NCBI GenBank assembly: GCA_041917295.1
Contig: JAYRXX010000063.1
Location: 21,583-85,582, forward strand
Reading direction: 5' to 3'
DNA length: 64,000 bases
From: Elusimicrobiota bacterium
Lineage (GTDB): Bacteria; Elusimicrobiota; Elusimicrobia; FEN-1173
Shown: piece after piece, positions 24,760-43,402 of the stretch
How the letters are laid out: the number at the start of each line of letters is the position of its first letter
How positions within the stretch are numbered: the first letter of the stretch is position 1
The notes under the pieces: generated by a model
Told to the model about the DNA's origin: nothing
Databases searched by the model: none
Seen by the model: the letters and a program-made list of their open reading frames with translations, nothing else
Program-made: the position numbers and the translations under genes

Positions 24760-27700
24760 TCAAGGGCTGACAATAACCCGCTGTTGGGCGCGCAAAAAAA
24801 TAACTTCAAAACCGCATTTTTCGCCTAGCGCCGACTCCACCGCTTTGCGATAAGCCGTTCCTTGAGCTTCGTAATTCCGCGCCTGTTCCTCGACGTGTGC
24901 GGCGTCCACCCGGTCGGTTTTGTAATCGGCCACCCACAGGCCCCCGTCCCGACGATAAAGAAGGTCGATGACCCCCCGCACAATCACGTCGCCGTCCGGG
25001 TAAAGAAACGGGGCTTCCCGGGCCAAAATGTCCGCGCGATCAAACGATCGCCCCAGCGGCGACGAAAAATAACCAGACAAAATGACCTTCGCTTCCCGAA
25101 GAACTTCCGGGTCGGATTGGATCTCCGGCCCCAACCGTCGCAGGGCCCGCTCCAACACCGACGCAAGATCGGATTTTCCCCATTCCCACAATTCCAGAAC
25201 CCCGTGGCACAATTGGCCCACCCACGCCGACCGAGCCCCCGCGCCGGGAGACGAATCGTCGGCCCAGACCGCGCGCGCCCGAGGGTGCTCCCCATCAGAG
25301 GGACGGCCGAACAACGGCCGGCCCTGGAGGCGCTGTCCGTTAGCCCGGCGGACCGCCCACAGGTGTTCCAGCTCGCTGGTGAGGAGCGGCGGGCTCGGAC
25401 TTTTTTGTTCGGACCACAACGGAAGCGGGGCGTTTTCGGGGCCGATTTGGCGGGGCACCAGGGCAAGTTGGGATTGGCCCGACAGCATTTCCATAAACGA
25501 TCCCGTGGACGATTTCTCCCCGCCCACCAAAATCACACGCTCCCGGGCCCGGGTGGCGGCCACGTAGAATAACCGGATGGCCTCTTCCTTTTCCCGTCGG
25601 CGTTCGTCGAGATCCATGAACGCCATGGCCAGGTCGGCCCATTTTCGCTTCACCAACCGATGGCCCGCCCGGCCTTCGGCCCAATCCAACCGAAACGCCG
25701 CCGGGCGATGGGCGGCCCCCCGCACAGTCGCGGACAAGTTGGGCAATATCACCACTTTGTATTCCAACCCTTTCGCCTTGTGAACCGTCAACAGGCGGAC
25801 CGCCGCGGTTCGGTCTTCCCCCAGAGGATTTTCGCCCTCTTCCACGCCCCGCCCCACGTCGCCGGCCACCCGTCGAACAAACCCGCCAACCGTTTCGCCC
25901 CGGGTTTCGCCGGCCTCGGCCGCCAACCGGGCCACCTTATGCAGATTGGCCACGGTTTGTTCCCCATGATACGCCGCCGCGCAGGCCGCCACGAACTCCG
26001 TCTGTTCCACCACCCGAGCCGCCAGGGCCCCCAAGGACTCCGTGCGCGCGGCCTGTCTCAAATCCGTGAGCGTTTTAACCAATTCCGCGATTCGGCTGTT
26101 TACCTCCGGCGGAACCGACGGGCCCCCTTCCCAGGAACCGGCGTCGGCCAGGGCCATCACGTATCGGTCTTCCACCATCATCCAAGGTGACCGCAGAAGG
26201 CCCACCCACGACACACGATCATTCGGATCGTCCAACACCCGCAACACATTTAAAAAATCCGTGACTTCCGGCGTGCCATAAAACGCCCGGTCGCTTTCAA
26301 CCCGATAGGGGATTTTGGCGTCTTTTAAGGCCGCCATATAGGCCGACAGCGGCGACGTGGATCGAAACAACAGGGCCACATCCCCCAACCGCCATGGCCG
26401 GCCAGACCCCTCCGGCCCGCACTGGCCGACGATCCACCGGGCGATCCAACGGGCCTCGGCGGCCACACCGCCGTCAACCACGACCAGGTCCACGTCTCCG
26501 CCGGAACCAGGGACCCCAAGAGATGGACGCTCCTCCCCTGCCCTGTCGTTTTCTTCGGGCCGAGGCAACAACGGCAAGTAGGCCGGCTGAAGGCCTTTTT
26601 CTTCACGCATCAAGCCGGAAAACAGCCGGTTGACCGGATCAACGATCCGCTCGTGGGTGCGGAAACTTGTCTGCAAGTCGCATTTGATTCCCCCCTGGGA
26701 AATGACCAAGGACACAAACGCTTCGTAGGCGCGTATGTCCGCTCCCCGGAACCGATAAATCGATTGTTTTGGGTCGCCCACAATGAACAGTTTTCCCGGC
26801 TCTAATTTGACGTCGCTCCACCGATCCGCTGCGGAGTTGGGCCCTTCCGCCAAAAACAGCAACATTTCACCTTGGAGTGGATCGGTGTCTTGAAACTCGT
26901 CCACCATCACGGCGCCGAAACGCTCCTTCAATTCCCGCCGCACCGCCGGATGGCGGGCCAACAGGTCCCGCGCGCCGCGCAACAAATCATCAAAACCCAA
27001 CCACCCCTGGGCCCGATAGTGTCGGCGGCACAGGTCGGCAAACGGCGCCAACAACCGACGAGCGCGAACCAACACCGCTTCCCCTTCCGGCGAAATTCGG
27101 TTGGCCAATTCCCCGGCTTGGGTATAAACGTCGACCCCGGGCAACCCCTTCCATTCACCGGGCCACTTTTTTAACGATTCTTTCCAATCCGACGGTTCCG
27201 AAATCGGACCGTCCGGATCCCGGACCACCTGCTCCACCGCACGCAGGCGTTGGGCGATGGAAGAAATGGACTTTAACATGTCTCCCCGGGCGGGTTTGGG
27301 TTTTCCTTCCGGCAACCGCTCCAGCGCTTCCCGAAGTTCCACCAGCCGATGAAGGAGCGGCGCCGTGTCTGTTTCGCAGGGCGGGTATTTTGACAAGGCC
27401 CGGGCCAACAGACCCAGGTCTCCCACCCCCGCGTGGGCCAACACGTCCCGCCACTGTTGTTCCCGGGGACTATCCAGAACCAATTCCTTTTCCAACCACA
27501 GCGACCATTGCGCCTGAAAAACGTCTTCGAACCCGCTTCCTTTATCCACTTGAAAATGGGGGTTCACCCCCGCTTCCACCGGGTAAAGTTGGATCAATGT
27601 TTTACAAAAGCTGTGGATTGTTCCGATGGGCGCGCGGTCCAGATCGCGCAACGCCTCGTGCGCCATGCGCCGCAACCGATCGTCGTCGGCCCCAAATTCG

Positions 27701-28017
27701 GTTCGCGCTTCGGCCAACCAGAATTTCATCCGCGCCGCCCGCTTGTCCGGAACAGGCAGGTCTTGAAGAACGCGCAACAAATCGTTCAACCGTTCGGCCA
27801 ACCGGATTTTTATTTCCCCCGCGGCTTTCTCCGTGAACGTGAGCGCCACGATGCGGGTGATGGACAACCCCGCCCGGTCCGGACCCCCGGCCAAGAGCAG
27901 GAACATCAACCGGTCTGTTAACAAGGTCGTTTTCCCGGTTCCCGCGCCGGCTTCAACCACGATGTTGGCGTCCAAGATTTTCCGCGCGGTGTCGCGGGAT
28001 TGTTGGTCCGCCGTCAT
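24760..28017 (-). CDS. addA: ATP-dependent helicase/nuclease subunit A (UvrD-family helicase + RecB-type PD-(D/E)XK nuclease)
   Basis: Walker A EAGAGTGKTT in a UvrD/Rep-like N-terminus. The C-terminal nuclease motif GVIDLLYRRDGGLWVADYKTD. 4-nt overlap with the upstream addB-like gene. Confidence 0.8.
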   Translation of the reverse strand: MTADQQSRDTARKILDANIVVEAGAGTGKTTLLTDRLMFLLLAGGPDRAGLSITRIVALTFTEKAAGEIKIRLAERLNDLLRVLQDLPVPDKRAARMKFWLAEARTEFGADDDRLRRMAHEALRDLDRAPIGTIHSFCKTLIQLYPVEAGVNPHFQVDKGSGFEDVFQAQWSLWLEKELVLDSPREQQWRDVLAHAGVGDLGLLARALSKYPPCETDTAPLLHRLVELREALERLPEGKPKPARGDMLKSISSIAQRLRAVEQVVRDPDGPISEPSDWKESLKKWPGEWKGLPGVDVYTQAGELANRISPEGEAVLVRARRLLAPFADLCRRHYRAQGWLGFDDLLRGARDLLARHPAVRRELKERFGAVMVDEFQDTDPLQGEMLLFLAEGPNSAADRWSDVKLEPGKLFIVGDPKQSIYRFRGADIRAYEAFVSLVISQGGIKCDLQTSFRTHERIVDPVNRLFSGLMREEKGLQPAYLPLLPRPEENDRAGEERPSLGVPGSGGDVDLVVVDGGVAAEARWIARWIVGQCGPEGSGRPWRLGDVALLFRSTSPLSAYMAALKDAKIPYRVESDRAFYGTPEVTDFLNVLRVLDDPNDRVSWVGLLRSPWMMVEDRYVMALADAGSWEGGPSVPPEVNSRIAELVKTLTDLRQAARTESLGALAARVVEQTEFVAACAAAYHGEQTVANLHKVARLAAEAGETRGETVGGFVRRVAGDVGRGVEEGENPLGEDRTAAVRLLTVHKAKGLEYKVVILPNLSATVRGAAHRPAAFRLDWAEGRAGHRLVKRKWADLAMAFMDLDERRREKEEAIRLFYVAATRARERVILVGGEKSSTGSFMEMLSGQSQLALVPRQIGPENAPLPLWSEQKSPSPPLLTSELEHLWAVRRANGQRLQGRPLFGRPSDGEHPRARAVWADDSSPGAGARSAWVGQLCHGVLELWEWGKSDLASVLERALRRLGPEIQSDPEVLREAKVILSGYFSSPLGRSFDRADILAREAPFLYPDGDVIVRGVIDLLYRRDGGLWVADYKTDRVDAAHVEEQARNYEAQGTAYRKAVESALGEKCGFEVIFLRAQQRVIVSP

Positions 28018-31004
28018 GGGACGATGTCCTCCTCCGATTCAATGGAGCCCAGGGCCCGACGTCGCGTGGGTCCGTGGGCCTTTCGGCACGCCCGGGCAAA
28101 CCCGCACAGGGAACAGTGGGAACCCGGCCCATCGGTCGGACGAATCACAAACTCGCCGTTGCGGATTTTTGATAACAGCTCCCCTCGCGCTTTAACGAGA
28201 GCGGGACCGTGTTTGTCCCAATCCTCCGCCGACAAAATGTCGGTTTCCGGTGCGGTCAACGATTCAAACCGAACGCCCCCGCACACCGCCCCGGGGCCCC
28301 ACAGGCCCTGGGCCGACACCATTTCCAAATAGGCGGGAGCTTGGTGAGCCTGACCGGCGGCCACCCGTTTCAGCAACGGCTCTTTCATGATTTTGTTTTT
28401 GTAATCCACCACGGTCCATCGGCCGGTCTGGGAAGAATAATCCACCCGGTCGATGCGTCCGTTCCAAAAAAAATCGGTGCCCGTCATGGGGGCTTTGATA
28501 ACCCACTCCAATTTCTCGGGCCGGGCGCCCTCTTGGATTAAGCGCGCCACGTCACGGCGAACAAAATCCGCCAATCGGCGGGTCACCCGATCGACCACCG
28601 TGCGCCACACCAACGGATAGGGGCCCGCTCCCTCGCCGACCGCGTCGGCAAAAAACGGGCCCGCCTCCTTTTGAAGATGGTCCGCGGCCGTGGCCGGGTC
28701 GGGAATCCCCTGAGCGGCAAAATCCCCATACACCCGATTCAACAAAGCGTGTTGAAGGGACCCCAACGCGGCGGGGAGAGGCCCCTCTTCGTCATAAAAA
28801 GGTCGAGGTTCTCGAATGCTCAACACCTGGGCCATAAAAAACTCGAACGGGCAATTTGCCGCCGTTTCCAACGCGCTCGGGGACAAACCCCGGCGAACGC
28901 ATCGGTCCAAAAAGGCCTCCGGTGCCTCCACGCGACCGTCCCACGGGCCTGGATGGTTCCCTTTAACCAGATGGGTCGCCCGTCGAACCGTTTCGCCCAA
29001 GGAACCCGTTGGATCCCGCCCATCTAAAATGTCCGCCAGGGCCGCTTCCCGGAGGGTCAATGTGTTTGCCGAAACAGACGTCCATTTGGCCAAGGGAGGA
29101 CGGGGTACCCGTTCGGCCTCGTCCACGTCGAGACCCAGAGCGCTCGCCAGGGTTCGCAGATACAAAGACGGAATTTCTGTCCGTCCTTCTTCTCCGGACC
29201 GGGAATAGACCAAATACAACCGCTCTTGAGCCGACGAAATTAACAGGGTGAACAACAGTTTTTCTTCATCGTGCCCTTCCCGTTTAGGCAAAATCCAATA
29301 TCCACCCGGGTCCCGCAAAAACCGTCGGGCGTCGTCGTTCAACAAGGGATCTTCCCGAATCACCCGGGGAAACACGCCTTCCTTCAGGCCAATCAAAAAC
29401 AAAACCCGGAAAGATTCTCCCCGGGCGTCCATGGCGCCCATGACCCGAACGCCCTGGACCGGCCCCGTCCCGTCGGCCCGGGCTTGACGCAGGGCCTCTG
29501 AAAAGGCCGAAACAAATTCGTCATTCTTTACCGGAGGCGAAAACCGATCCAATTCCGCTAAAGAATCAAGTGTTCGCGACACGGGATCCAGCGTATCCAG
29601 AACCGACGGATCCACCAGCCTTTGCCACTGTTCGCGAAGGGCATCGGCGTGGGCTTTCCACGATCGTTCCCCCTCATCAAAATCAAGCCCGGCTGACCCC
29701 TTGGAAGCCCCCCCGACTTGAAGAAACAATTCGGCAAGCGCCGGAATTTTTTGAGCGGCGGGCGCAAGAAGATGGTTGAACCCCGCCCGGGGCCCCGCCG
29801 TGATCAAATAGCTTCGGGCTTCCCGAACAGCCGCGGAGGTAAAGAGATCGGCCCGAAGGAGCGGAGAGGACAACAAATCAAGCAAAACGGTGCGATCGTG
29901 GCCGTGAGTCCGAACCCCCGCCAGGTTTAAAGCAAACCGAGCCGCGGGTTTGGCCAACAGGGGTCCCCCGTCAGTCAGAGAAAATGGGATCCCATGGGCG
30001 AAGAAAATTTCATGAACCAACCCGGTGTAATTTTCCACCCCGCGCGCCACCACGCCCATGTGGTTCCAATCCACAGGATTGGATCCTTCCCGCAACGTCA
30101 GGATTTCTTTGGCCACGCGCCAAACTTCGTCCCGTTCTCCGGAGACATTCAAAATGCGGACATTTCCCTCCCCCTGTTGCGTTAAGAACCCCGGATCGAA
30201 AATACGATCTGCCAGGACACCCAACACCCGCGGTTCGCGGGACGTTCCACTTTGAATTCGGGCCCCCCCCCACGGAATGTTGACGTCCAAAAATCGCTCG
30301 GCAAACGACCACCCCGGGCTCCCCTTGACGCAGGGGAAAAAAAGCGTGACCGGAGCCGATTGGGCCATAGCCCGGAAAAAATCCGACTGGGCCCCGTTTA
30401 AATCGTAAAACCCGTAGTAGAGGAATTCGTCGTAGACAGACAAGAGGGCCGGGTCGGATTCCACGGCGATCGCGGCCCGACGGGCCACATCGGCGGACCC
30501 CGCTACGTTCGCTTGGTCCAACCGGGCCCGATAGGCGTCGGCCATGTCAATCAACCGGTCCAGTTTTTCTTTGCCGGAAAAATTCAAATCAGAGAAATGC
30601 TCGCGGAAATGGCTACCCACCACGCCCGCTTCCACCAAATCCCGCAACGTGGACCGATACGCTCCCGCCAGTGCCCGGGCCCGCTCGGAACCCATTTGAT
30701 ATTCTTTCAACAAAATCCGTTCCACAACCCGTTCATGAAAAAGGTCGTCGTTGATCACGGTCGGCAACGGTCCACCGGCCAACCGCAACACATCCAACGC
30801 CAAGCTGTTTAAAGTATGGAACCGAATGTTGAACAAAGAAAGGCCCCGCTCGGCCGACAACAACCGCTGGAGTCGTTCGGCCATCCGCTGAGACGCCGTG
30901 ACCACCGCCACCCGCCGCCCTGGTCCCGGGGGGGTTGTTGTCAGATAGGAAACGAAGGATTCTTCAAGATAAGAAAACGAACCCACCTGAAGGGAAAGGG
31001 ACAT
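28014..31004 (-). CDS. addB: helicase/nuclease subunit B-like (inactivated helicase + RecB-type nuclease with Fe-S cluster)
   Basis: Nuclease motif GRIDRVDYSSQTGRWTVVDYKNK. C-terminal Cys cluster ...NCPFEF... and CSLCGFARAC (C-x2-C-x5-C), typical of the AddB iron-staple. Confidence 0.75.
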   Translation of the reverse strand: MSLSLQVGSFSYLEESFVSYLTTTPPGPGRRVAVVTASQRMAERLQRLLSAERGLSLFNIRFHTLNSLALDVLRLAGGPLPTVINDDLFHERVVERILLKEYQMGSERARALAGAYRSTLRDLVEAGVVGSHFREHFSDLNFSGKEKLDRLIDMADAYRARLDQANVAGSADVARRAAIAVESDPALLSVYDEFLYYGFYDLNGAQSDFFRAMAQSAPVTLFFPCVKGSPGWSFAERFLDVNIPWGGARIQSGTSREPRVLGVLADRIFDPGFLTQQGEGNVRILNVSGERDEVWRVAKEILTLREGSNPVDWNHMGVVARGVENYTGLVHEIFFAHGIPFSLTDGGPLLAKPAARFALNLAGVRTHGHDRTVLLDLLSSPLLRADLFTSAAVREARSYLITAGPRAGFNHLLAPAAQKIPALAELFLQVGGASKGSAGLDFDEGERSWKAHADALREQWQRLVDPSVLDTLDPVSRTLDSLAELDRFSPPVKNDEFVSAFSEALRQARADGTGPVQGVRVMGAMDARGESFRVLFLIGLKEGVFPRVIREDPLLNDDARRFLRDPGGYWILPKREGHDEEKLLFTLLISSAQERLYLVYSRSGEEGRTEIPSLYLRTLASALGLDVDEAERVPRPPLAKWTSVSANTLTLREAALADILDGRDPTGSLGETVRRATHLVKGNHPGPWDGRVEAPEAFLDRCVRRGLSPSALETAANCPFEFFMAQVLSIREPRPFYDEEGPLPAALGSLQHALLNRVYGDFAAQGIPDPATAADHLQKEAGPFFADAVGEGAGPYPLVWRTVVDRVTRRLADFVRRDVARLIQEGARPEKLEWVIKAPMTGTDFFWNGRIDRVDYSSQTGRWTVVDYKNKIMKEPLLKRVAAGQAHQAPAYLEMVSAQGLWGPGAVCGGVRFESLTAPETDILSAEDWDKHGPALVKARGELLSKIRNGEFVIRPTDGPGSHCSLCGFARACRKAHGPTRRRALGSIESEEDIVP

Positions 31005-31050
31005 ACGATGATTATAAAACTTCGATTAATTTATTTCAGAAGTCTCTCTA

Positions 31051-31965
31051 TCAGGCGGCGCCGGTGGCGGGCAAGCGGGATTCGGAGCTGGAGGAACGCA
31101 CTTCGGTCGTCAGCGTTGCTTCCAGATCGGAAAAAGAGGCCCCCGCTTTGTAGGAAAATCCGATCCGGACAACGTCCCCCAGCCCGACGGGGAAGGCTTT
31201 CGGCAGCGGTAAGATCAAATAGTGGCTGTGCCAATCAATGGTTTTTTTTGTTTCGGACACAACCGCCAGGATGTTTTTCGTAATAAACCGGAGGGCATTC
31301 AGGGCCCCTTCTTTTTCAATCTCAATTTCGCCGCTCCAATCGCAGCGGGCCGGGATGGAGTCTTTGTACGTATGCAACTGATACACTTTCGGCATCCCCA
31401 ACTCCCGTGTTTTTTCGTGCAAAACATTGGGATTTTGAAGAATAGGGATCGGGGCGTAATACCCATCGAAGGTAAAATCGTGTTCCACCGGTTGCACGGC
31501 CTGGATAAAGGCCTCGGGAACAAACTGGGGCAACGGGTTCCCAAACCGAGCCAGATATCGTTCTTTAAATGAATTGAGAATAGGAATTTGTTTTTCCCTC
31601 AACATGGCCACATGGATCATTTCACAGATCACCACGTCCACGGGTTCCGGGGGCAGGTATTTGAACGCGTCCGCTTTGATCACCTTTATTTTATTGCCGC
31701 ACTCGTTCATTGAAAGGATCTGTCTTGCTTTCGACACGAGTTCCGGATTGCGCTCAACGCACCACACTTTTCCGGCTTTGAGTCCCGCGAAATAGGAAAG
31801 AACCCCGGTTCCACCACCCAATTCCAAGACCTTCCCCCCCAGCGGAACCAAATAATCAATAGCGGTTTTAAACCCGCGCATGCGGGTGACGTCGCTGAGC
31901 ATGTTGTGATGGTAGTGCAGGGGGATAAACTGCCCCAGCACCGAGGAGTCGTCCGCTCGAACCAT
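31051..31965 (-). CDS. PRMT-like (protein arginine N-methyltransferase fold) class I SAM-dependent methyltransferase
   Basis: Motif I VLELGGGTGVLS, post-I VDVVICEMIHVAMLREKQ (PRMT double-E-loop-like), and an N-terminal ...HHNMLSDVTRMRGFKTAI pre-motif. GC is lower than in flanking core genes. Confidence 0.6.
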   Translation of the reverse strand: MVRADDSSVLGQFIPLHYHHNMLSDVTRMRGFKTAIDYLVPLGGKVLELGGGTGVLSYFAGLKAGKVWCVERNPELVSKARQILSMNECGNKIKVIKADAFKYLPPEPVDVVICEMIHVAMLREKQIPILNSFKERYLARFGNPLPQFVPEAFIQAVQPVEHDFTFDGYYAPIPILQNPNVLHEKTRELGMPKVYQLHTYKDSIPARCDWSGEIEIEKEGALNALRFITKNILAVVSETKKTIDWHSHYLILPLPKAFPVGLGDVVRIGFSYKAGASFSDLEATLTTEVRSSSSESRLPATGAA

Positions 31966-32090
31966 GCGAGCCTTCTTTACTTAAGTTGGGGACACGGCCA
32001 AACCGCTTCCGGGACCCAACGTAAGTATCGGACGAATTGGGAATTTCTTAACGGAGAGAAAAATAAAAATGGCAAAAACGTTGCTTGTAT

Positions 32091-32099
32091 GTGAAACAA
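32091..32099. repeat. target-site duplication, left copy (GTGAAACAA)
   Basis: Identical 9-mer directly flanks both IS ends. Confidence 0.6.
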
Positions 32100-33387
32100 C
32101 ACACCTGTCCGGGGAAAAAATAAGGGAATCCCCCGTTATTGGTAAAATGATTGTGCGAACAATTCATTTTATCGACGGAGGATTCCCGTGGCCCATTATA
32201 ACACGATTTTAAATCAGTTGCTGTTCCATGTCCCCCGACATCAATTCGACCGACTGGTCGAAACCCACCAAGCGGACCGCTACGCGAAAACGTTTAGCAC
32301 CTGGAACCAGCTAACGGTGATGCTCTATGCCCAATCGAGCGGTAAAGAGAGCTTGCGTGAAATTGAACAAGGACTGGAAACCCAAGAGAGCAAAACCTAT
32401 CACGTGGGATTGGCAGGGCCTGTTCGGCGGACGACGTTGGCGGATGCCAACGGGCGGCGAAAGTGGGAAATATTCAGGGGAGTGTTCGGAGAGTTATTGA
32501 CCCGGTGCCGATCGGTGACGCCAAAGCACAAATTTCGGTTTAAAAACCCACTGTATAGCATTGACTCGACGGTCATCAGCCTATGTTTGAGCCTTTTCCC
32601 CTGGGCGCGGTATCGAACGGCGAAGGGGGGCCTGAAACTTCATTACCAGCTGGATTACGCGGGCCATATCCCGAGCTTAATGGTGATCACAGAGGGTCGA
32701 GAAAATGATGTGTCCGTGGCGAAAAAGGATATACCGATTGAACCGGACAGCATCTATTGCTTTGATCGGGGGTATGTGGACTTCGGGTATTTCCGACGGT
32801 TGGAGAATATGGGGTGCACGTTCGTGACACGGGTGAAAAAGAACCTGTCCTATTGGGTTACCGGACAGCAGGAATGCTTGAAAAACCGCGGTGTTTTGAT
32901 GGACGCGACGATTGAGCGAGGGCAGGGGGAGTATGTGGGCAAGGATTGCCCGCTACGGCTGATCCGTTACTACGATAAGGAGAACGATCGGACGCTGGAG
33001 TTCCTGACCAACAACATGACGTTTGCAGCAACGACGATTGCGGAGATCTACAAAGCCCGCTGGCAGATCGAGGCATTCTTCAAGTGGATCAAGCAGAACT
33101 TGAAGATCAAGACGTTCCTTGGCACGACGGAAAACGCGGTGCTAAGCCAGATCTGGGTGGCGATGATTTATTACTTGTTGTTGGCTTACATCAAATATCA
33201 AACCAAATACGGCCGTTCGCTGTTCTATTTGCACCGGGTGATTAAGGAGACCTTGTTGGATCGGATCTCCCTGATGGATCTTCTCAACTTAAACGAAGCC
33301 AGGCTTAAAAGATTGAAGCGACTTGACCCGCAACTCCATTTTTCCTTTATCGCCACCTAATTTCCAAACTTTCCCCGGACAGCTGTG
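32100..33387 (+). mobile_element. intact IS4-family insertion sequence (1288 bp)
   Basis: 18-bp terminal inverted repeats CACACCTGTCCGGGGAAA (32100-32117) and reverse-complement CACAGCTGTCCGGGGAAA (33370-33387), 17/18 identical, starting with CA. 9-bp direct repeats flank it. A single DDE transposase ORF lies inside. GC is ~50%. Confidence 0.75.
32188..33360 (+). CDS. IS4-family DDE transposase
   Basis: 390 aa. N-terminal DUF4372-like region and a DDE domain with CFDRGYVDFGYF and ...YKARWQIEAFFKWIKQNLKIK (the YREK-like IS4 signature). Confidence 0.85.
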   Translation: MAHYNTILNQLLFHVPRHQFDRLVETHQADRYAKTFSTWNQLTVMLYAQSSGKESLREIEQGLETQESKTYHVGLAGPVRRTTLADANGRRKWEIFRGVFGELLTRCRSVTPKHKFRFKNPLYSIDSTVISLCLSLFPWARYRTAKGGLKLHYQLDYAGHIPSLMVITEGRENDVSVAKKDIPIEPDSIYCFDRGYVDFGYFRRLENMGCTFVTRVKKNLSYWVTGQQECLKNRGVLMDATIERGQGEYVGKDCPLRLIRYYDKENDRTLEFLTNNMTFAATTIAEIYKARWQIEAFFKWIKQNLKIKTFLGTTENAVLSQIWVAMIYYLLLAYIKYQTKYGRSLFYLHRVIKETLLDRISLMDLLNLNEARLKRLKRLDPQLHFSFIAT

Positions 33388-33396
33388 GTGAAACAA
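33388..33396. repeat. target-site duplication, right copy (GTGAAACAA)
   Basis: See the left copy. Confidence 0.6.
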
Positions 33397-33562
33397 TAGT
33401 TTACAAAAGATTTACAAGTTGTTAAGGCGAAATTAACTTGGTTCAGTTACAATATCCTCGTTAAAATTGTTTCACCTATTTTCCAAAGATAATTAATGGC
33501 TTATTTGCTTATGTCAATGCGCTACTGCATAGTTATACAGGAACGAAAGGCATTTCCATGCC

Positions 33563-33600
33563 CGTCATTCCGGCGTGGGGTTAGCCGGAATCCAGTCGTT
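33563..33600. repeat. short palindromic element, copy 2 (REP-like), just upstream of the giant gene
   Basis: CGTCATTCCGGCGTGGGGTTAGCCGGAATCCAGTCGTT. Shares the CGTCAT(C/T)CCGGC...GCCGG(G/A)ATCCAGTC(A/G)TT frame with 18183-18215. Confidence 0.35.
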
Positions 33601-33620
33601 TCTGTCTTGAGGGGGCCACA

Positions 33621-36600
33621 GTGATGTCGTTATTCTTTTCGGTTTCCGGGATTCGCAGGCGTTGGTCGGTCTTCGCGCTCAGTGTGATATTTTTTGGGTC
33701 CAATGTCCTTGCCGTCCATGCGGGAGAGGCCAGTTTTTGGGCGGAGCGTCGCAATGTCTCCCGACGAATGCATGGGGTGGAAGCAAAATCCGGGGCCACC
33801 GGGTTCGGGCTGACGGCGGAACAGTATCAGACCCTGACCCAACTGCCGAAGGCTGGCCAGTTGAACCCCGGCAGCATTCAGGGCGGTTCATCCGTCGGCT
33901 CTGGACGGGCAGTGTCCCCCCCTGTTTCGAACGTCTTTCGACCTTTTGAACACCCGACCCTTTTGGGTGACACCCCCACGTGGGTGTCACAGCTTATCCT
34001 CCCTTACGGGTCCATCCTTGAGGCGCATCTCGCCAAAAAAACCAACGCGCCCTTCATCGTCCACATCCAGGACGCCCACGGGATCGAGGAAGCCCAAAAG
34101 AACATGGCGGCCATGATCGAGGGGCTGAGCGAAAACCGCGGGGTGAGCCTGGTCGGGGTTGAAGCCGCCCAGGGCCCTTTCAACATGGGACCCTACCGGG
34201 ACTGGCCGGACGCAAATGTGACCCGTGACGTGGCCACCTATTTCCTCAAAGATGGCACAATCGGCGGAGCGGAATTCGCCGGGATCACCGCCCCCAAGCC
34301 TCTGACACTTTGGGGGATCGAGGATACAGACCTTTACCTCGCTAACGTTCATGCCTTAATAGACGCCAACAAGCTGAAACCGGAACTAACAAAAGCCTTA
34401 GCCGGTATCAAAAGGTCCGTTTCTTCCCTCAAGGAAACGATTTATTCCAAGGAACTGAAAGACTTTGACAAGCATTTCCAGGCCTATCAAGACCAACGGG
34501 AAGGGCTGGGAGCCTATGTCCGATTTTTAACGGCCGGATCACTGTCAAACAAAAAGGGGTTGCCGAACCTCCACCTTCTGGTCAAGGCTCTCATGGCCGA
34601 AGAGGCCCTGGACTTCAAGCAAGTGGAGAAAGAACGGCTCAAGCTGGTGGAAAGGCTGGCCCTTCGCCTTGCCAAGGATAAGCTGGACCTCCTTGTGCAA
34701 AAGAGCTTCCAATACCGCGCCGGTCAAATTGGCTACGGCGATTATCATCGGTTTCTAAAATCTCTGTGCCGTGAAAACGGGATCTCCCTGGGCGACCTGA
34801 ACCAACTGGACAATTATATCGAATACGTCCTCCTGGCAGACAAGATTGACCGAAACAACCTATTGAACGAGTTGACCCGCGCCGAAAAGGCCTCTCAAGA
34901 CCGGCTGGCGATCACGTCCGAACAAAAAAAACTACTGGCCGTCGCTCGGCGCCTGGCCCTCCTTGAAAAACTCTCGACCCACACCATGACGCCAGACGAT
35001 TGGGCGGCCTTCGAGAAAGAAAGAGAACATATTCTGACCATCGCCTCCGACCTTGCCACCCTTTCCGGCGAAGAACAGGCGCTACCCCTTGACACCCTGG
35101 CCGGTCTGATCAGTCCGTCAGAAAGTTTTTGCCGTTTTGCCATCGACCGCAACGCCGCTTTCATTGACAACCTTTCCGCCCAAATGGAAATGAAAAAAGC
35201 ATCCTCGGCAGTCCTCGTAGCCGGAGGCTTCCATTCCGACGGCCTAACCCGCCTTCTCCGGGAAAGAGACTTATCATATGTGGTGGTCACCCCCAAAATC
35301 AGCGAAGTCCCCAAAGAGAATAATTACTTGGATGTATTTGCCCGTGACCCATTGCCCCTAGAAAAACTGTTCGCGGGGGAAAAGATTTCGTTAAACAGCG
35401 CTAGGCTGTCCGGTGGAACGATGAGGGGGTTTGAGGGCCCGGCGTCCGCTTTTCGGCGCGAAGGGGTGGCCACCATGGCCGCCACGGCTTCTCTTGAACC
35501 GAACGTGGATCACACAGCTCTCAGTCGGACGGCGGAGAGCACCGCGGCGGAGCTTAGCGCACCCATGTCGATCAAGATTTCCGGCAGTTCCAACCGTACG
35601 TGGACAACCATCGACACCAATGGGGACGGTCAAGTCGACCTGAAAATGATAGCGACTCCTTCGGGACGTTCGCTGCCGCCGCAGGAAGATTCCCCTCCCT
35701 TGTCAACAGTGGAGATCGACGGCCGCGCCAAAATTACCTTTCACCAAATCCGTCCAGGTTTATTCAAAAAAGTTTGGGCTTCGATCCGGAAAATATTTCC
35801 CATCCGCAGTCCGGTGAACAGCCGTGGTGGGGTCGAACAAACACCTACATCGAACACCGCTTTCCCCATCCTTCATGTCCCCCAGGGGGGCCTGATTGGG
35901 AAGTTTCGTCTTTTGTCCGACCCTCAATGGGATCCCGCTTCAAAAACTGTCTCTTTTGTGGGGCAAGACATTGAAAACCCGGGCAAACCACCCGAAACAA
36001 TTCGCCTTGAGGCTGAAATCGTTGATCGAGAGGAATGGGCCGACCGCCTTTATTCGAGTCTATCTGGTAGGGAAAACGACTTGGTGACTGAGATCATGGA
36101 TTGGTTTCAAGACGCTTTCCATGGTCCATTGATCGTTTTAAGAGACAATCCCATCACCCAAGGCATAGGGACCCAGGTGGGAGAGCAAGGCGGATTCGTA
36201 GCCGTTTCTGAACGCTACGCTAATAATCACATCGCTTGGTTTCACGAGATTGCGGAAGCCATGGCCCCGAATGCCGATGAAATCCTCTCACGACTTTCCC
36301 CAAACTCACAGGCCTGGTACAAGGCCCATATGTCCAAACCGGGCCGACAGGGTATGGAACGGCACTACGCCATCCGGGCTCTCCAACGTGAAGTATTTCG
36401 GCAATCTGACTTAAGTTTGACCTATGAAATCAAGGGCCGATTGTCCGCCACGGATATCTCGAAAAAACTCAGTTCGGCCAAATTAAAAAAAGGGTTTGTC
36501 GTTCGGAATGAGTTTTCCCGGCAACGCTCTTCGCAGAACAGCCGGGAGGGTGAAATATCTTTATTGGAAGATCTGATCAAGACCCAGAGGAAGGCCGAGG

Positions 36601-39600
36601 AAGAAGAAATTGAAAGACAACGGATTGAACAAGAAGAGATCGAACGGCGCCATGCCGAAGAAACAGCTGTAAGGGTTAAAATTCGATCTCTTCTCGATCG
36701 AGCAAAGGGGATTATCGAAGCCCCCTTGGCTTCGGATTTGGCGCACGAACACCGGTTAATAGAAAAAGACAAGGCCGCCCTCGCCGCCGTTTCCGTTCTT
36801 CGGCCGTTATTCGAAATGAATCCCGAATGGGTGGCGGAGGCACTGGTTGAAGATTTGATGGCTGGTGGCGCAACGCCGGCGGACCTCTATTCCCTCATGG
36901 GGAAAGACTCATTTGGGGTATACCTTGCGAAGAATGTTGTCCCCCAGTTGGGAGAGAGGGCCTTATCGCAAACATTATTAAAGCTGATGGAGAAACGATC
37001 GACATTGCAATGGAATAGACGAGCATTCAAAGCCCACGCTGCCGTCGTCACCCTTTTCGTCGACCATGCGCCAAGACTGGGGGAACGTGTAACCGCTGAG
37101 GTCGCCGGGCCGCTTCTCATGGCCCTACGAAAGGAATTTAGGGCTCGGCCGTACACGCGCTTGAGTTTTGTTCAAGGCATTCCTGATTACAGGAGATACT
37201 TCGACGTGGATGGAGACGTGGTCTTCTTTAAAGACGACTTCTTGAATAGATTGCTGGTGCGAGACATGGGAGCCCGCCGGAACCTACACACGCTGTACCA
37301 TGAGGCCATTCGCGAACAGGAATATTTGTCAAGTTTAACCGACAACTTGCTGTCAAAGGACACCGAGGGGCATCTTTTTAACGCCCTCCTTTCAGCGCTC
37401 CATCAAGAGGGAAACCCGCTCGTGCGTGCTCATTTGGAGAGTAGTCTGATCCGCGCCTGGAGAACCACCCTCCCCTCCGCGCATGAGAGGTTATTAAACC
37501 TTGTCAAGGAGATTCAAGCAACACATCACAATGGCGATGAGAGATTAAAAGAAGACGCGATAGGACGCTTGTTAATGATCGCACACAAAGATGGTTGGGA
37601 TTCTGGAATTTCCTCTGACATTCTTTTTTCAATGGCCATGGATGGCTTGCCGGGATTATTCGAAGCGGTTCGATCCCAATCTTCGGAAATAGACAAAATG
37701 CCTCGCGGTATTGAAAGGGATATGGCAAACAGGCAAATGGGAGAGACGATGACGGCGGTGAAAAAGAGACTCGCCATTTTGTGGAGGGTGGCTTTAAGCG
37801 CGACGTCCCAATCATCCGTTCCGGCATCGATCTCCGTGGCGGGACGAGCCATGGCTTACCTTGTTGAAGTGGCGCAAATGGAAGGGGACATCGCCATCCG
37901 GTCCGAAACCATCGCTCTCCTTGGGATCGCGGTCGAAAAAGGTTACCCAGCCGCGGTTCGTGCGTTCCTTCCCTCAATACAGCCGTCTTCCCAACAATTC
38001 GAAAACCTTTTTTATGACAACCCCAGTGATGAGGTCATTCTTAACGCCCTACGGTCAAAGGCCATGTCTGTTCGTCTGGGGTTCCTCTTATTGCGTCGAT
38101 ACAAAAATGATCCAAGCCGCGCGGGGTTGCTGAAAGCCATCGTATTGGATAGGAAAACAAACGAGGGGGATTCCTTGGGCATTAATGCCCAAATTCGTTT
38201 CTATGCCTTTGCGCTCTACGGCAGTCAGTATTTGAAAACAACGAATGAAGATGGGATAACCTCTTCTTACGACGAGAATCAATTTCAAGAAATGGCCGGT
38301 GCGCTTGCGCCGCATGCACACGGTTTTATCGGGACCGCCATCGATGATTCAATACTCATCGACCGGCTGTTTGATGGTTGGCCTGGGCAGGACGAAGAGT
38401 TGGGAGCGTACGCAATCGCCACGGTCCTTGATGCCTTTCATGGGAATTTGACCGGTTTGAAAGCGAAGGGTTTTGTGGCGGTGGCAGAGAGAGTGGTTAA
38501 CGCCCGCGCCAGCTCCTATCTAAATAATGCCTATGATGATCTCTCGTTCGGAGGTCACTTTCTCCGAAGAGCTCAAAACCCCGTTCAATTCTTTTTTCAA
38601 GTAATGGTCCACGAACTCACGCACATCTTGTTGAAGAACCAACATGATTATTTGGCGGGGGAATTAGTCGGTGGGACGATTCATGAATGGTTGGCTGATT
38701 TGGCCGCGGAGGATTTTTCCAGGAGAAGGGGTTTATCCCTGGAGGATTACCGAGATATCTTAGGGTTTGATAGGGATTTATCATTTGTTGAAGAGGATTC
38801 GTTCCATACCATTGAGGTTCATGAGGGTGCACGGGCCCAGCAGTTGCTGATTGCAGGGTGGCTTTCGGAAAACGGTCTCACGCTTGATCCGTCAAAAATG
38901 GTTCGTGCGGCATTGGATGTTCTACCGGGAACGTCGGGCGATGACCTGGACGTTGTGGTAAGAAAGGTCCTTGAGAGGTTTGCGGGACGTCCGCTGGAGG
39001 ACTCAGAAACAGCGGGGATGAATCGTATGTTTCTGTCTTTGTTTGATTATAGATTCGATGAATTTATTGAGGGGAAGTATCGGCAAAGAATTCTTTCTTT
39101 GCCCGTTTTGCGTGAAATATTGAGCCCCTTGTTGGATGGGTTGGCCACCTCTCTTCAATCGGTGTTCCCTTCCGGACAGGAGGAAGGGGTTTTGGCGGAG
39201 GCGACCGCTCGCTCCCTGGCCGGAGCCGGCCTATGGACCGGGGGCCTCTTTCCATTGTTATCCCTGGGAACCAAAAACGTTTTGGACGCTGTCGCGAAGA
39301 GCCTTGCGGCATGGGGATTGGAACCAATAAAAGACATGAGTCCACGACTTTGGCCGCAAATGATTCAGGAGGCGATGGCGGGGGGACTTCAGTTAGAGCT
39401 GATACAATCCATCGTGGGCGCCCTGGCGAGGGACGGATTCATGGAAGAGCGTGCGTGGACTGCGAAGGAAAACGCCGCTCTTGAGAAGGTCCAAAGACGA
39501 TTGGCGTCGGACCTCCCGGGGGTTCGCGCCATTGAGTATGTGCGACTGGGATTTGGCAAAAAGGCCGTGGATCCCTCCACGGGGGCCGAAGTATCATTGG

Positions 39601-40562
39601 ACACAAGCTTGTTTATGGGGTTTGACATGAAACCGGATGGGACGTTAAGAGTTTTTGTCCATCCCGACGTTTTCAATGGGGCCGCCGACCCGGCCGCGTT
39701 TCTTCTCGATGCCATGATGCACGAGATTCTTGAAGGACCAGGGGGTGTGGAACACTCGATCCTTGAGGACGAAGGCATCGGAATGGACCGAAATATCGAT
39801 TGGCAGACAGCGGAGGCGCGAATTTCATCAGTCCAGTTGAGGTTGGCAACGAACTTATTGGAGCGATGGTCACGGGATGGTGATCCAGATGCCCTAATAA
39901 AATTGGCGATGGTTGGGGCTCATGGGGTGAATTGGGATGGAGCGCGGCCAGCGACCCCTGTCGGGGCCATGGGGCCGACGTTCGCTCTGGCGGGGGACCG
40001 TGGACAGCGGGCGTTGGCTCACCTCATGGCTGTGGCGGAGGATGTCGGAATGGATTCCACCCTGGTCGAACGATTGTTGCATCGGGGCCTTTTGGTGGCG
40101 GGTTGGCGGGCGGTATTGGCCGAGGCCCCCGGCGCGTTCCACTATGTGGACGTTTCCCCTCTGGATGAGGCTCCGGAATCCGAAAATCGGTTGGCCTGTG
40201 AAACGCTTCTTTCCGCTTTGGAGGTTGTTGTGGCCGCCGACCCAAATCCAACAAAGAGGGCCCAACAGATTTTTATCGGATGCGACAACCAGGGTCAAAA
40301 AACCTTCGTTGAGTCGCGGTTTCCGACCTTAAAGGGCTCTCGGTTTAAAACCAATCGATTTGAGGGAAAGGATATCGCTGTCGGATGGGCGGCAACCGAG
40401 GTCGACGAGGCCGGGTCGTCCTCTTTGCACGTTCACACGGTGCGGGAGTTGAACACCGACGGCACGCCTCCAGGGATCGACGTGGTGCCCAGCCCCTACA
40501 ACTTGAGCACGATCATGCAAAAAGCATTGGATTCCATTATCCGCGTCTTGATTGCCGCTTAA
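33621..40562 (+). CDS. giant secreted protein (2313 aa) of unknown function with HExxH zincin-like motif
   Basis: GAGGGGG RBS, then GTG at 33621 / ATG at 33624. Signal peptide MMSLFFSVSGIRRRWSVFALSVIFFGSNVLAVHAGEA. One HExxH (VMVHELTHILL, ~residue 1660) with a downstream Glu (GTIHEWLAD). Charged coiled-coil stretch EEEIERQRIEQEEIERRHAEE. No Walker motif or other recognisable domain. GC is clearly below genome background. Confidence 0.7.
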   Translation: MMSLFFSVSGIRRRWSVFALSVIFFGSNVLAVHAGEASFWAERRNVSRRMHGVEAKSGATGFGLTAEQYQTLTQLPKAGQLNPGSIQGGSSVGSGRAVSPPVSNVFRPFEHPTLLGDTPTWVSQLILPYGSILEAHLAKKTNAPFIVHIQDAHGIEEAQKNMAAMIEGLSENRGVSLVGVEAAQGPFNMGPYRDWPDANVTRDVATYFLKDGTIGGAEFAGITAPKPLTLWGIEDTDLYLANVHALIDANKLKPELTKALAGIKRSVSSLKETIYSKELKDFDKHFQAYQDQREGLGAYVRFLTAGSLSNKKGLPNLHLLVKALMAEEALDFKQVEKERLKLVERLALRLAKDKLDLLVQKSFQYRAGQIGYGDYHRFLKSLCRENGISLGDLNQLDNYIEYVLLADKIDRNNLLNELTRAEKASQDRLAITSEQKKLLAVARRLALLEKLSTHTMTPDDWAAFEKEREHILTIASDLATLSGEEQALPLDTLAGLISPSESFCRFAIDRNAAFIDNLSAQMEMKKASSAVLVAGGFHSDGLTRLLRERDLSYVVVTPKISEVPKENNYLDVFARDPLPLEKLFAGEKISLNSARLSGGTMRGFEGPASAFRREGVATMAATASLEPNVDHTALSRTAESTAAELSAPMSIKISGSSNRTWTTIDTNGDGQVDLKMIATPSGRSLPPQEDSPPLSTVEIDGRAKITFHQIRPGLFKKVWASIRKIFPIRSPVNSRGGVEQTPTSNTAFPILHVPQGGLIGKFRLLSDPQWDPASKTVSFVGQDIENPGKPPETIRLEAEIVDREEWADRLYSSLSGRENDLVTEIMDWFQDAFHGPLIVLRDNPITQGIGTQVGEQGGFVAVSERYANNHIAWFHEIAEAMAPNADEILSRLSPNSQAWYKAHMSKPGRQGMERHYAIRALQREVFRQSDLSLTYEIKGRLSATDISKKLSSAKLKKGFVVRNEFSRQRSSQNSREGEISLLEDLIKTQRKAEEEEIERQRIEQEEIERRHAEETAVRVKIRSLLDRAKGIIEAPLASDLAHEHRLIEKDKAALAAVSVLRPLFEMNPEWVAEALVEDLMAGGATPADLYSLMGKDSFGVYLAKNVVPQLGERALSQTLLKLMEKRSTLQWNRRAFKAHAAVVTLFVDHAPRLGERVTAEVAGPLLMALRKEFRARPYTRLSFVQGIPDYRRYFDVDGDVVFFKDDFLNRLLVRDMGARRNLHTLYHEAIREQEYLSSLTDNLLSKDTEGHLFNALLSALHQEGNPLVRAHLESSLIRAWRTTLPSAHERLLNLVKEIQATHHNGDERLKEDAIGRLLMIAHKDGWDSGISSDILFSMAMDGLPGLFEAVRSQSSEIDKMPRGIERDMANRQMGETMTAVKKRLAILWRVALSATSQSSVPASISVAGRAMAYLVEVAQMEGDIAIRSETIALLGIAVEKGYPAAVRAFLPSIQPSSQQFENLFYDNPSDEVILNALRSKAMSVRLGFLLLRRYKNDPSRAGLLKAIVLDRKTNEGDSLGINAQIRFYAFALYGSQYLKTTNEDGITSSYDENQFQEMAGALAPHAHGFIGTAIDDSILIDRLFDGWPGQDEELGAYAIATVLDAFHGNLTGLKAKGFVAVAERVVNARASSYLNNAYDDLSFGGHFLRRAQNPVQFFFQVMVHELTHILLKNQHDYLAGELVGGTIHEWLADLAAEDFSRRRGLSLEDYRDILGFDRDLSFVEEDSFHTIEVHEGARAQQLLIAGWLSENGLTLDPSKMVRAALDVLPGTSGDDLDVVVRKVLERFAGRPLEDSETAGMNRMFLSLFDYRFDEFIEGKYRQRILSLPVLREILSPLLDGLATSLQSVFPSGQEEGVLAEATARSLAGAGLWTGGLFPLLSLGTKNVLDAVAKSLAAWGLEPIKDMSPRLWPQMIQEAMAGGLQLELIQSIVGALARDGFMEERAWTAKENAALEKVQRRLASDLPGVRAIEYVRLGFGKKAVDPSTGAEVSLDTSLFMGFDMKPDGTLRVFVHPDVFNGAADPAAFLLDAMMHEILEGPGGVEHSILEDEGIGMDRNIDWQTAEARISSVQLRLATNLLERWSRDGDPDALIKLAMVGAHGVNWDGARPATPVGAMGPTFALAGDRGQRALAHLMAVAEDVGMDSTLVERLLHRGLLVAGWRAVLAEAPGAFHYVDVSPLDEAPESENRLACETLLSALEVVVAADPNPTKRAQQIFIGCDNQGQKTFVESRFPTLKGSRFKTNRFEGKDIAVGWAATEVDEAGSSSLHVHTVRELNTDGTPPGIDVVPSPYNLSTIMQKALDSIIRVLIAA

Positions 40563-40677
40563 AAATTCAACCTATTTGCCCCACCCGGGTTAAGGGGACT
40601 ATAGTGAGCATTTTACAATGCAAAATGCTCACTATCTATACGAAATGCACGGTCCACAACCGACCGGCCAGATGTTT

Positions 40678-41255: not shown

Positions 41256-41369
41256 ACCATTAGTATGACTCACACACATACGGCTGTCAAGGCCTGACAG
41301 AGCATTTTTTCCACGTTGGCAATTCCCTCATCCGGCCCTTCGGGTCGGCTTCGAGTCCCACGCTAAAAC

Positions 41370-43370: not shown

Positions 43371-43402
43371 GGGATCTCCTTGTCCATGGAGCCCCTATTC
43401 TA

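What the first reader, a model, noticed from the sequence alone, without database searches (positions are those of the whole stretch)
31051..31965. Eukaryote-type PRMT-like methyltransferase in a bacterial island
The sequence shows the PRMT arrangement (pre-motif I helix, motif I VLELGGGTG, double-E-like VDVVICEMIHVAMLRE) rather than a generic small-molecule methyltransferase. Bacterial PRMT homologues are sporadic. Its position beside a giant secreted protein in horizontally acquired DNA suggests a specialised protein-modification role.
Basis: inference. Interest (0 to 1): 0.5.

Follow-up and report, generated by a model that had tools for sequence, protein, structure and literature searches.

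The report
Bacterial PRMT-fold methyltransferase, backbone gene
This gene encodes a methyltransferase with the same two-domain shape and arginine-gripping loop as eukaryotic protein arginine methyltransferases, but it belongs to a large, untested bacterial family and is an old chromosomal gene next to which a giant mobile gene was later inserted.

Summary

It differs from canonical PRMTs. The THW histidine is a near-invariant Asp (T-I-D-W), the dimerisation-arm segment is about 13 residues shorter and not helical in the model, and the barrel shows no significant sequence similarity on its own.

The family is not a eukaryote-type oddity: at least 467 species-representative genomes carry a relative, and JGI already labels many "PRMT1". 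The gene is not part of the island. Syntenic relatives have HNH-MTase-AddB-AddA with no giant gene. The 9.35-kb insertion (IS4 element plus 2313-aa ORF) came later.

No neighbour is conserved family-wide. The substrate is unknown; a guanidino group is likely. A distant relative fused to arginine decarboxylase keeps a small-molecule substrate plausible. Uncharacterised member of a known fold; moderate interest.

The parts
31051..31965 (-). Complete ORF, 304 aa: PRMT-fold SAM-dependent methyltransferase
31971..31977 (-). Shine-Dalgarno-like AAGAAGG, 5 nt upstream of the ATG
   Evidence: Read directly from the sequence.
31519..31920 (-). N-terminal helices plus Rossmann SAM-binding domain (aa 16-149)
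   Evidence: DSSP of the model. hhalign to verified PRMT1: 97.5-99.4% probability. Mapping: H19=H45, M22=M48, D25=D51, R28=R54, E71=E100.
31804..31830 (-). Motif I VLELGGGTG (aa 46-54)
   Evidence: G50, G52 and G54 are conserved in 91-93 of 95 sequences.
31594..31641 (-). Double-E loop VDVVICEMIHVAMLRE (aa 109-124); E115 at 31621-31623, E124 at 31594-31596
   Evidence: Aligned to the PRMT3 and PRMT1 double-E glutamates E144/E153, with the same E-x8-E spacing. Conserved in 92/95 and 94/95 sequences.
31096..31518 (-). C-terminal all-beta (barrel) domain (aa 150-290)
31231..31242 (-). THW-loop equivalent T-I-D-W (aa 242-245): Trp kept, His replaced by near-invariant Asp
   Evidence: phmmer, hmmsearch and hhalign all choose the same register. 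D244 and W245 are each conserved in 92/95 sequences.
31411..31479 (-). Segment at the position of the PRMT dimerisation arm (aa 163-185): about 13 residues shorter than in PRMT1, with no helix-turn-helix predicted
   Evidence: DSSP shows only a 3-residue helix here. The global hhalign alignment has gaps of 4+6+3 residues here.
32100..33387 (+). Adjacent, not part of the enzyme: IS4-family element (transposase 32188-33360), 21-nt terminal inverted repeats, 9-bp target duplication GTGAAACAA at 32091-32099 and 33388-33396
   Evidence: NCBIfam transpos_IS4_1 4.3e-79. Inverted repeats. Absent from L006 at exactly this junction. Target duplication read from the sequence.
33621..40562 (+). Adjacent, not part of the enzyme: giant 2313-aa ORF within the roughly 31985-41340 insertion
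   Evidence: No Pfam, NCBIfam or PADLOC hit. Absent from the syntenic loci L002, L003 and L008. 98.9% DNA identity to L006 against 82.7% for the backbone.

Best explanation
The ORF encodes a soluble SAM-dependent N-methyltransferase with the full two-domain PRMT architecture. It belongs to a large, conserved, experimentally uncharacterised bacterial clade of the PRMT superfamily.

Most likely mechanism:
- SAM binds the Rossmann domain through motif I (GGGTG), R28 (carboxylate), E71 (ribose) and D99 (adenine).
- The two glutamates of the double-E loop (E115, E124) hold and polarise a guanidinium group in the cleft between the Rossmann domain and the beta-barrel.
- A terminal guanidino nitrogen then attacks the SAM methyl group.

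The favoured substrate is an arginine side chain in one specific conserved protein or peptide. This is unproven.

Shown: the fold, the motifs, their conservation, and the genomic history. Inferred: that the acceptor is a guanidino group. Speculative: that it is a protein arginine.

The gene is a chromosomal backbone gene (HNH-MTase-AddB-AddA in this lineage). The IS4 element and the giant ORF were inserted beside it later and have no demonstrated functional link to it.
For: Sequence: phmmer against PDB gives PRMTs as the top 59 hits (6.9e-11). The first non-PRMT hit is at 1.8e-3. The family profile reaches 1.2e-19 with all 60 rows shown being PRMTs. hhalign against sequence-verified PRMT1 gives 99.0% probability, E 2.4e-18, over query 16-275.

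Catalytic residues: E115 and E124 have PRMT spacing and are near-invariant. R28, E71, D25 and M22 map to PRMT1 R54, E100, D51 and M48.

Family: 2758 homologues in the word-indexed search, of which the 120 listed are 54-92% identical. There are 64 50%-identity clusters at E<=1e-30 and relatives in at least 467 species genomes.

Backbone status: L002, L003 and L008 are syntenic without the insertion. The window's genes match that backbone by Pfam.

A tandem-duplicated relative (P0188) mirrors the PRMT7/9 pseudo-dimer design (the PRMT7/9 architecture is from my own knowledge).
Against: No PRMT-specific Pfam or NCBIfam model passes threshold (PRMT5 model 16.9 bits against a cutoff of 22.9).

The barrel half alone has no significant sequence similarity to PRMT1 (score 14.0 against 10.4-22.4 for shuffles).

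The THW histidine is replaced by Asp. The dimerisation-arm segment is shorter and not helical in the model, and canonical PRMTs need dimerisation for activity.

The prokaryotic group has its own conserved signature (Q126, N223-x-x-R226-x-x-T229) that PRMT1 lacks. This could mean a different acceptor.

A distant relative is fused to arginine decarboxylase, which points to small-molecule substrates in at least one branch.

No member has been tested, and no conserved partner gene identifies a substrate.
Confidence: 0.6

Rival explanations
1. It is a small-molecule guanidino N-methyltransferase. It would act on free L-arginine, agmatine or a related metabolite rather than on a protein, like SznE/StzE in streptozotocin biosynthesis.
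For: A distant full-length relative, P0250 (30% identity, E 6e-20), is a fusion of pyruvoyl-dependent arginine decarboxylase (PvlArgDC 8.4e-24) with the PRMT-like module. It is followed by LPG_synthase_C-like and GNAT genes. The query is closer to this protein over its full length than to any eukaryotic PRMT.

Very many pocket residues are invariant (H118, R123, K125, Q126, N223, R226, K230, N231, D244), which suits one fixed small ligand.

Bacterial free-arginine guanidino methyltransferases exist (PMC11705231, PMC12637814). Aravind et al. place the bacterial PRMT relatives in secondary-metabolite operons (PMC3417536).
Against: The query clade shows no biosynthetic-cluster or arginine-metabolism context in 85 loci. 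Its neighbours are housekeeping genes and differ between lineages.

P0250 lacks the clade's D-W motif (read from the sequence), so it may have a different substrate.

The barrel and cleft architecture is the one PRMTs use for peptide binding.
Confidence: 0.28
2. One reading: it is a dedicated modifier of the neighbouring giant secreted protein, acquired together with it on a genomic island.
For: The two genes are adjacent and divergently oriented in the window, in L001 and in L006. The giant ORF has a signal-peptide-like N-terminus. The region has lower GC than its flanks.
Against: The methyltransferase occupies the same backbone position in L002, L003 and L008, which lack the giant gene.

Hundreds of genomes carry the methyltransferase in unrelated contexts.

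The two genes have different histories. Against L006 the giant gene is 98.9% identical, while the AddA/AddB/MTase backbone stretch is 82.7%.

The methyltransferase's GC3 (0.636) matches AddB's (0.648), so its lower overall GC is not a transfer signature.

A cytoplasmic enzyme would also have to act on a Sec substrate before export.
Confidence: 0.04
3. It is a generic class I methyltransferase of another specificity (PrmA-like lysine or N-terminal protein methylation, or rRNA/tRNA methylation). On this view the PRMT resemblance is only shared Rossmann ancestry.
For: The best Pfam and NCBIfam hits are generic or other families: Methyltransf_25 8.7e-8, PrmA 22.6 bits against a cutoff of 22, CpaM, KsgA. 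PADLOC mad2 scores 3.4e-17.
Against: All those hits cover only aa ~27-135, the SAM-binding core, and sit at or below threshold. TIGR00406 prmA scores 20.4 against 183.

The double-E loop and the barrel are present and conserved.
Confidence: 0.08

Closest known systems
Eukaryotic PRMT catalytic cores (PRMT2, PRMT3, PRMT6, CARM1, AtPRMT10, T. brucei PRMT7)
Bacterial 'PRMT-like peptide methylases' noted computationally by Aravind and co-workers (PMC3417536)
   Same: Bacterial members of the radiation from which eukaryotic PRMTs are said to derive, so bacterial PRMT-fold proteins are not a new concept.
   Different: Those were described in antibiotic-like secondary-metabolite operons or as NRPS domains. 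This clade is a stand-alone ~300-aa protein in housekeeping contexts with no such neighbours. I could not check whether that survey listed this particular clade.
SznE/StzE-type free-arginine guanidino N-methyltransferases (PMC11705231, PMC12637814)
   Same: Bacterial SAM-dependent methylation of a guanidino nitrogen. The ArgDC-fused distant relative P0250 suggests similar chemistry within the same prokaryotic superfamily.
   Different: Those enzymes are encoded inside biosynthetic gene clusters, which is not the case here. No sequence of SznE was available, so similarity was not measured.
PrmA (ribosomal protein L11 methyltransferase)
   Same: Class I SAM-binding core. The Pfam PrmA model scores marginally at threshold (22.6 against 22).

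Membership tests
PRMT superfamily (class I protein arginine N-methyltransferases) | Rossmann SAM-binding domain with motif I GxGxG, a post-I acidic residue, and an Arg that binds the SAM carboxylate | tested here: met
   VLELGGGTG (aa 46-54). E71 = PRMT1 E100 and R28 = R54. hhalign gives 97.5-99.4% probability. These residues are near-invariant.
PRMT superfamily (class I protein arginine N-methyltransferases) | Double-E loop: two glutamates 8 residues apart after strand beta4 | tested here: met
   E115-x8-E124 aligns to the PRMT3 and PRMT1 (E144/E153) glutamates. Conserved in 92/95 and 94/95 sequences, and also in distant prokaryotic relatives.
PRMT superfamily (class I protein arginine N-methyltransferases) | C-terminal beta-barrel domain packed against the Rossmann domain | tested here: met
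PRMT superfamily (class I protein arginine N-methyltransferases) | THW loop (Thr-His-Trp) in the barrel, forming part of the active site | tested here: inconclusive
   Three alignments place T242-I243-D244-W245 on the THW position, though each is individually insignificant. The Trp is kept (92/95). The His is replaced by Asp (92/95). From my own knowledge, this position also varies among PRMT5, PRMT7 and PRMT9.
PRMT superfamily (class I protein arginine N-methyltransferases) | Helix-turn-helix dimerisation arm and a functional head-to-tail dimer | tested here: inconclusive
   The segment aa 163-185 sits at the arm position. It is about 13 residues shorter than in PRMT1 and has only a 3-residue helix in the model. 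The oligomeric state cannot be predicted with these tools. A tandem-duplicated relative (P0188) hints that pairing of modules matters.
PRMT superfamily (class I protein arginine N-methyltransferases) | N-terminal YFxxY motif / helix alphaX that closes over SAM | tested here: inconclusive
   The invariant L10-G-Q-F13 aligns to F36..Y39 only in the forced global alignment. Residues 1-13 have pLDDT below 50.
PRMT superfamily (class I protein arginine N-methyltransferases) | Passes a curated PRMT-specific sequence profile | tested here: not met
   The only PRMT-named Pfam model that registered was PF05185 (PRMT5), at 16.9 bits against a cutoff of 22.9. No NCBIfam model reaches its cutoff.
PRMT superfamily (class I protein arginine N-methyltransferases) | Catalyses methylation of peptidyl-arginine (MMA, ADMA or SDMA) | not testable with these tools
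   This needs an enzyme assay. No characterised member of this bacterial clade was found in six literature searches.
PrmA (L11 methyltransferase) | Full-length PrmA architecture, meaning the N-terminal L11-binding domain plus the methyltransferase domain, passing the equivalog model | tested here: not met
Natural-product free-arginine / guanidino N-methyltransferases (SznE/StzE type) | Encoded within a biosynthetic gene cluster alongside enzymes that use the methylated product | tested here: not met
   No such neighbours in the window or in the 85 family loci clustered. Only the distant fusion relative P0250 has a small-molecule-like context.
Natural-product free-arginine / guanidino N-methyltransferases (SznE/StzE type) | Sequence similarity to SznE/StzE | not tested
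   No SznE sequence was available in any accessible collection.
MADS anti-phage system, Mad2 methyltransferase (PADLOC) | Full-length match to the Mad2 profile, with the other MADS genes nearby | tested here: not met
   The hit (3.4e-17) covers only aa 39-115, which is profile 287-364 of 492 and is the generic SAM-binding motif. No MADS partner genes were seen among the annotated neighbours.

The most novel reading that the evidence does not exclude
This clade could be a genuine bacterial protein arginine methyltransferase. That would make it a dedicated 'writer' of arginine methylation on one conserved bacterial protein, and a surviving representative of the prokaryotic stock from which eukaryotic PRMTs arose, working with an Asp-Trp loop in place of THW and a reduced dimerisation arm.
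Probability: 0.3. Interest if true: 0.65.

Novelty: new member of a known kind. Interest (0 to 1): 0.35.

Why it matters
Arginine methylation has been reported across bacterial proteomes, and its study in bacteria is described as neglected (bioRxiv 10.1101/2023.06.29.546327). I found no characterised bacterial PRMT-fold protein arginine methyltransferase in the searchable literature.

This clade is compact (about 300 aa) and highly conserved, and it occurs in culturable genera such as Massilia, Herbaspirillum, Janthinobacterium, Herminiimonas and Nitrosomonas. That makes the question easy to test by knockout, methyl-proteomics and an in vitro assay. It would also give an outgroup for studying how the PRMT active site evolved.

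For this window specifically, the gene is an ordinary backbone gene. The proposed link to the giant secreted protein does not hold.

Tried and rejected
(1) Pfam, NCBIfam and PADLOC scans give only generic or sub-threshold SAM-core hits (Methyltransf_25, PrmA, CpaM, KsgA, mad2), all confined to aa ~27-135. I rejected them as family assignments.

(2) Conserved-neighbour analysis over 85 loci (ORF calling, all-against-all blastp, clustering) found no family-wide partner. holB, tatD, ankyrin, GNAT and PilZ recur only within Oxalobacteraceae. One large cluster was made of spurious antisense ORFs.

(3) A sequence-only test of barrel homology (hhalign of a 195-sequence profile against PRMT1 residues 177-353) was not significant: score 14.0 against 10.4-22.4 for 20 shuffles. 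The barrel claim therefore rests on predicted structure.

(5) Contexts of a winged-helix-fused relative (next to a PNP_UDP_1 gene) and of a tandem-duplicated relative were uninformative.

(6) Lower GC as evidence that the methyltransferase itself was transferred: rejected, because its GC3 of 0.636 matches AddB's 0.648.

(7) Six literature searches found no characterised member of this clade. One further query was malformed.

(8) Co-transcription with AddB. The gap is 46 nt with no terminator-like site, but a -10-like TATAAT lies in it. This is undecided, and it is not conserved outside this lineage.

Full report
**Observation**

The ORF is real and lies exactly where stated: 31051..31965, minus strand, 304 aa, ATG start. 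An AAGAAGG ribosome-binding-like sequence lies 5 nt upstream. VLELGGGTG is aa 46-54 and VDVVICEMIHVAMLRE is aa 109-124.

**What the sequence resembles**

Curated profile libraries give only generic answers. Pfam hits are Methyltransf_25 (8.7e-8), Methyltransf_31, MTS, PrmA (22.6 bits against a cutoff of 22) and PRMT5 (16.9 against 22.9). All cover only aa ~27-135. No NCBIfam model comes near its cutoff.

Comparison with all PDB sequences is unambiguous:
- The top 59 hits are PRMTs (PRMT3 6.9e-11, PRMT7, PRMT6, CARM1, PRMT1, PRMT2, PRMT8, PRMT9). The first non-PRMT hit is at 1.8e-3.
- The alignment puts E115 and E124 on the PRMT3 double-E glutamates.
- A 33-sequence family profile improves this to 1.2e-19 (AtPRMT10), and all 60 rows shown are PRMTs.

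Against this sequence:
- hhalign with the family profile gives 97.5% probability over the Rossmann half. The mapping is H19=H45, M22=M48, D25=D51, R28=R54, E71=E100, E115=E144 and E124=E153.
- A broader 195-sequence profile gives 99.0% probability, E 2.4e-18, over query 16-275 against PRMT1 42-322 in local mode.

**Fold**

An AlphaFold2 model built on the family alignment is confident (pLDDT 86.9, pTM 0.83). It shows two N-terminal helices, a Rossmann domain and an all-beta C-terminal domain.
- Foldseek against the PDB returns PRMTs as all of the top 50 hits (E down to 1.4e-17, 296-353 alignment columns, TM 0.60-0.77).

So the PRMT-specific barrel is present.

**How it departs from canonical PRMTs**

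1. The THW position reads T-I-D-W. Trp245 and Asp244 are each conserved in 92 of 95 family sequences, so the PRMT histidine is replaced by an acid. Three independent alignments choose this register, but none is significant alone.
2. The segment at the dimerisation-arm position (aa 163-185) is about 13 residues shorter than in PRMT1 and has no helix-turn-helix in the model. Oligomeric state could not be tested.
3. The barrel half has no significant sequence similarity to PRMT1 on its own (score 14.0 against 10.4-22.4 for 20 shuffles). Barrel homology therefore rests on predicted structure.
4. The prokaryotic relatives share their own signature, which PRMT1 lacks: Q126 two residues after the second Glu, and N223-x-x-R226-x-x-T229 in a barrel strand.

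**Family**

The protein is not a lone eukaryote-like oddity.
- The word-indexed search finds 2758 homologues. The best 120 all have E<1e-106, are 287-351 aa long and 54-92% identical. JGI already names many of them 'protein arginine N-methyltransferase 1', while NCBI calls them 'methyltransferase domain-containing protein'.
- An exhaustive phmmer search of 1.84 billion cluster representatives finds 64 clusters at E<=1e-30, 415 at <=1e-10 and 3330 at <=1e-3.
Hosts include Massilia and other Oxalobacteraceae, Nitrosomonas, Gallionella, Sulfuricella, Chromatiaceae, Nitrospinota, Nitrospirales and Elusimicrobia-labelled MAGs.
- The closest genome (89% identity) is MAG 'Elusimicrobia bacterium' JADJZR010000013.

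**Genomic context**

Pfam annotation of the window gives this gene order:
- Amt (22318-23649)
- response regulator (24130-24714)
- AddA (24760-28017)
- AddB (28014-31004)
- MTase (31051-31965)
- IS4 transposase (32188-33360)
- giant ORF (33621-40562)
- HNH (41418-41987)
- PALP, LOG, DAO, T2SSE (42006-47826)

Homologues at 63-68% identity on long contigs (L002, L003) and L008 show the same order, T2SSE-DAO-LOG-PALP-HNH-MTase-AddB-AddA-RR-PII-Amt. They have about 200 bp between the HNH gene and the methyltransferase. The window therefore carries an insertion of about 9.35 kb (~31985-41340).

Within the insertion, the IS is 32100-33387. It has 21-nt terminal inverted repeats and a 9-bp target duplication, GTGAAACAA. 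It is absent from L006, where the giant gene abuts the methyltransferase directly.

The giant gene is 98.9% identical to L006's at the DNA level, while the AddA/AddB/MTase backbone is 82.7% identical. So the giant gene was exchanged recently, and the methyltransferase was not.

The methyltransferase's GC3 (0.636) matches AddB's (0.648).

Outside this lineage the contexts are unrelated: a DEAD-box helicase and AspRS in Gallionella, and holB, tatD, ankyrin and WS/DGAT in Oxalobacteraceae. Clustering the neighbours across 85 loci finds no family-wide partner. The proposed functional tie to the giant secreted protein is therefore not supported.

**Function**

- Shown: a PRMT fold with an intact, near-invariant SAM site and double-E loop.
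- Inferred: the acceptor is a guanidino nitrogen held by E115 and E124.
- Open: whether the substrate is a protein arginine or a small molecule.

For a protein or peptide substrate: the cleft-plus-barrel architecture, and a relative (P0188) that is a tandem duplication of the module, which recalls PRMT7/9 as I know them.

For a small molecule:
- A distant full-length relative (P0250, 30% identity) fuses a pyruvoyl arginine decarboxylase domain (8.4e-24) to the module. It sits beside LPG_synthase_C-like and GNAT genes.
- Bacterial free-arginine guanidino methyltransferases such as SznE/StzE are known (PMC11705231, PMC12637814).
- Aravind and co-workers place the bacterial PRMT relatives in secondary-metabolite operons (PMC3417536).

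Other relatives carry an N-terminal winged-helix domain.

The many invariant pocket residues in the query clade point to one specific substrate of either kind. My estimates are about 0.6 for guanidino/arginine methylation with a protein or peptide substrate favoured, about 0.28 for a small-molecule substrate, and under 0.1 each for the remaining rivals.

**Novelty**

Bacterial PRMT-fold proteins have been noted computationally (PMC3417536), and automated pipelines already label this family PRMT1-like. Six literature searches found no experimental characterisation of this clade.

It is an uncharacterised member of a known fold, with some variant features. Bacterial arginine methylation is described as understudied (bioRxiv 10.1101/2023.06.29.546327), and that gives the family moderate interest.

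**Limits**

- The structure is predicted, not solved.
- afdb50 was unavailable.
- SznE could not be compared.
- Activity, product type and oligomeric state are untested.

Noticed in passing
window 33388-39261 vs L006 1-5875; window 25078-32099 vs L006 5867-12912: The giant 2313-aa ORF is 98.9% identical at the DNA level to its copy in the Elusimicrobia-labelled MAG JADJZR010000013. The adjoining AddA/AddB/MTase backbone is only 82.7% identical. This implies recent recombinational exchange or a sweep of the giant gene between diverged lineages.
   Followed up: partly
window 32100-33387 (target duplications 32091-32099 and 33388-33396): An intact IS4-family element: 1288 bp, 21-nt terminal inverted repeats, 9-bp target duplication GTGAAACAA, transposase matching transpos_IS4_1 at 4.3e-79. 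It is inserted in the divergent intergenic region, 135 bp upstream of the methyltransferase ATG, and is absent at this junction in L006. It may have changed promoter activity for both flanking genes.
   Followed up: yes
window 33621-40562: The giant ORF has no Pfam, NCBIfam or PADLOC hit. It has a signal-peptide-like N-terminus (RRR, a hydrophobic stretch, then VHA|GE) and a single HExxH motif (HELTH, aa 1664, nt 38610-38624). It might be a secreted metalloprotease-like or toxin-like protein of an undescribed family.
   Followed up: partly
L001 1313-9638: In the closest metagenomic relative (methyltransferase 92% identical), the giant gene is split into 1126-aa and 1207-aa ORFs by an ISL3-family transposase. 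A PemK toxin gene lies nearby. This site seems to attract IS elements.
   Followed up: no
P0250 / L086 8001-9452: A distant relative is a fusion of pyruvoyl-dependent arginine decarboxylase with the PRMT-like methyltransferase. It is followed by LPG_synthase_C-like and GNAT genes. This could be a pathway to an N-methylated agmatine-type metabolite.
   Followed up: partly
P0187, P0190, P0193, P0194, P0213, P0260 (L087/L088); P0188 (L089): A sizeable subgroup of distant relatives (about 370-420 aa, rich in K, E and I) carries an N-terminal winged-helix DNA-binding-type domain and keeps the double-E loop and, in several members, an S-D-W motif. One of these lies next to a PNP_UDP_1 gene. Another relative (577 aa) is a tandem duplication of the whole module, like PRMT7/9.
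   Followed up: partly
window 41418-41987: A 189-aa HNH endonuclease gene with unusually low GC (0.477, GC3 0.521) lies between the PALP gene and the methyltransferase. It is conserved at that position in the syntenic relatives L002 and L003. Its best PADLOC hit is 'homing endonuclease' at 1.6e-19.
   Followed up: no
window 31005-31050: The gap between the methyltransferase and AddB is 46 nt. It has no terminator-like site but contains a perfect -10-like TATAAT. The MTase-AddB-AddA order is conserved in this lineage only, so co-transcription is possible but undecided.
   Followed up: partly
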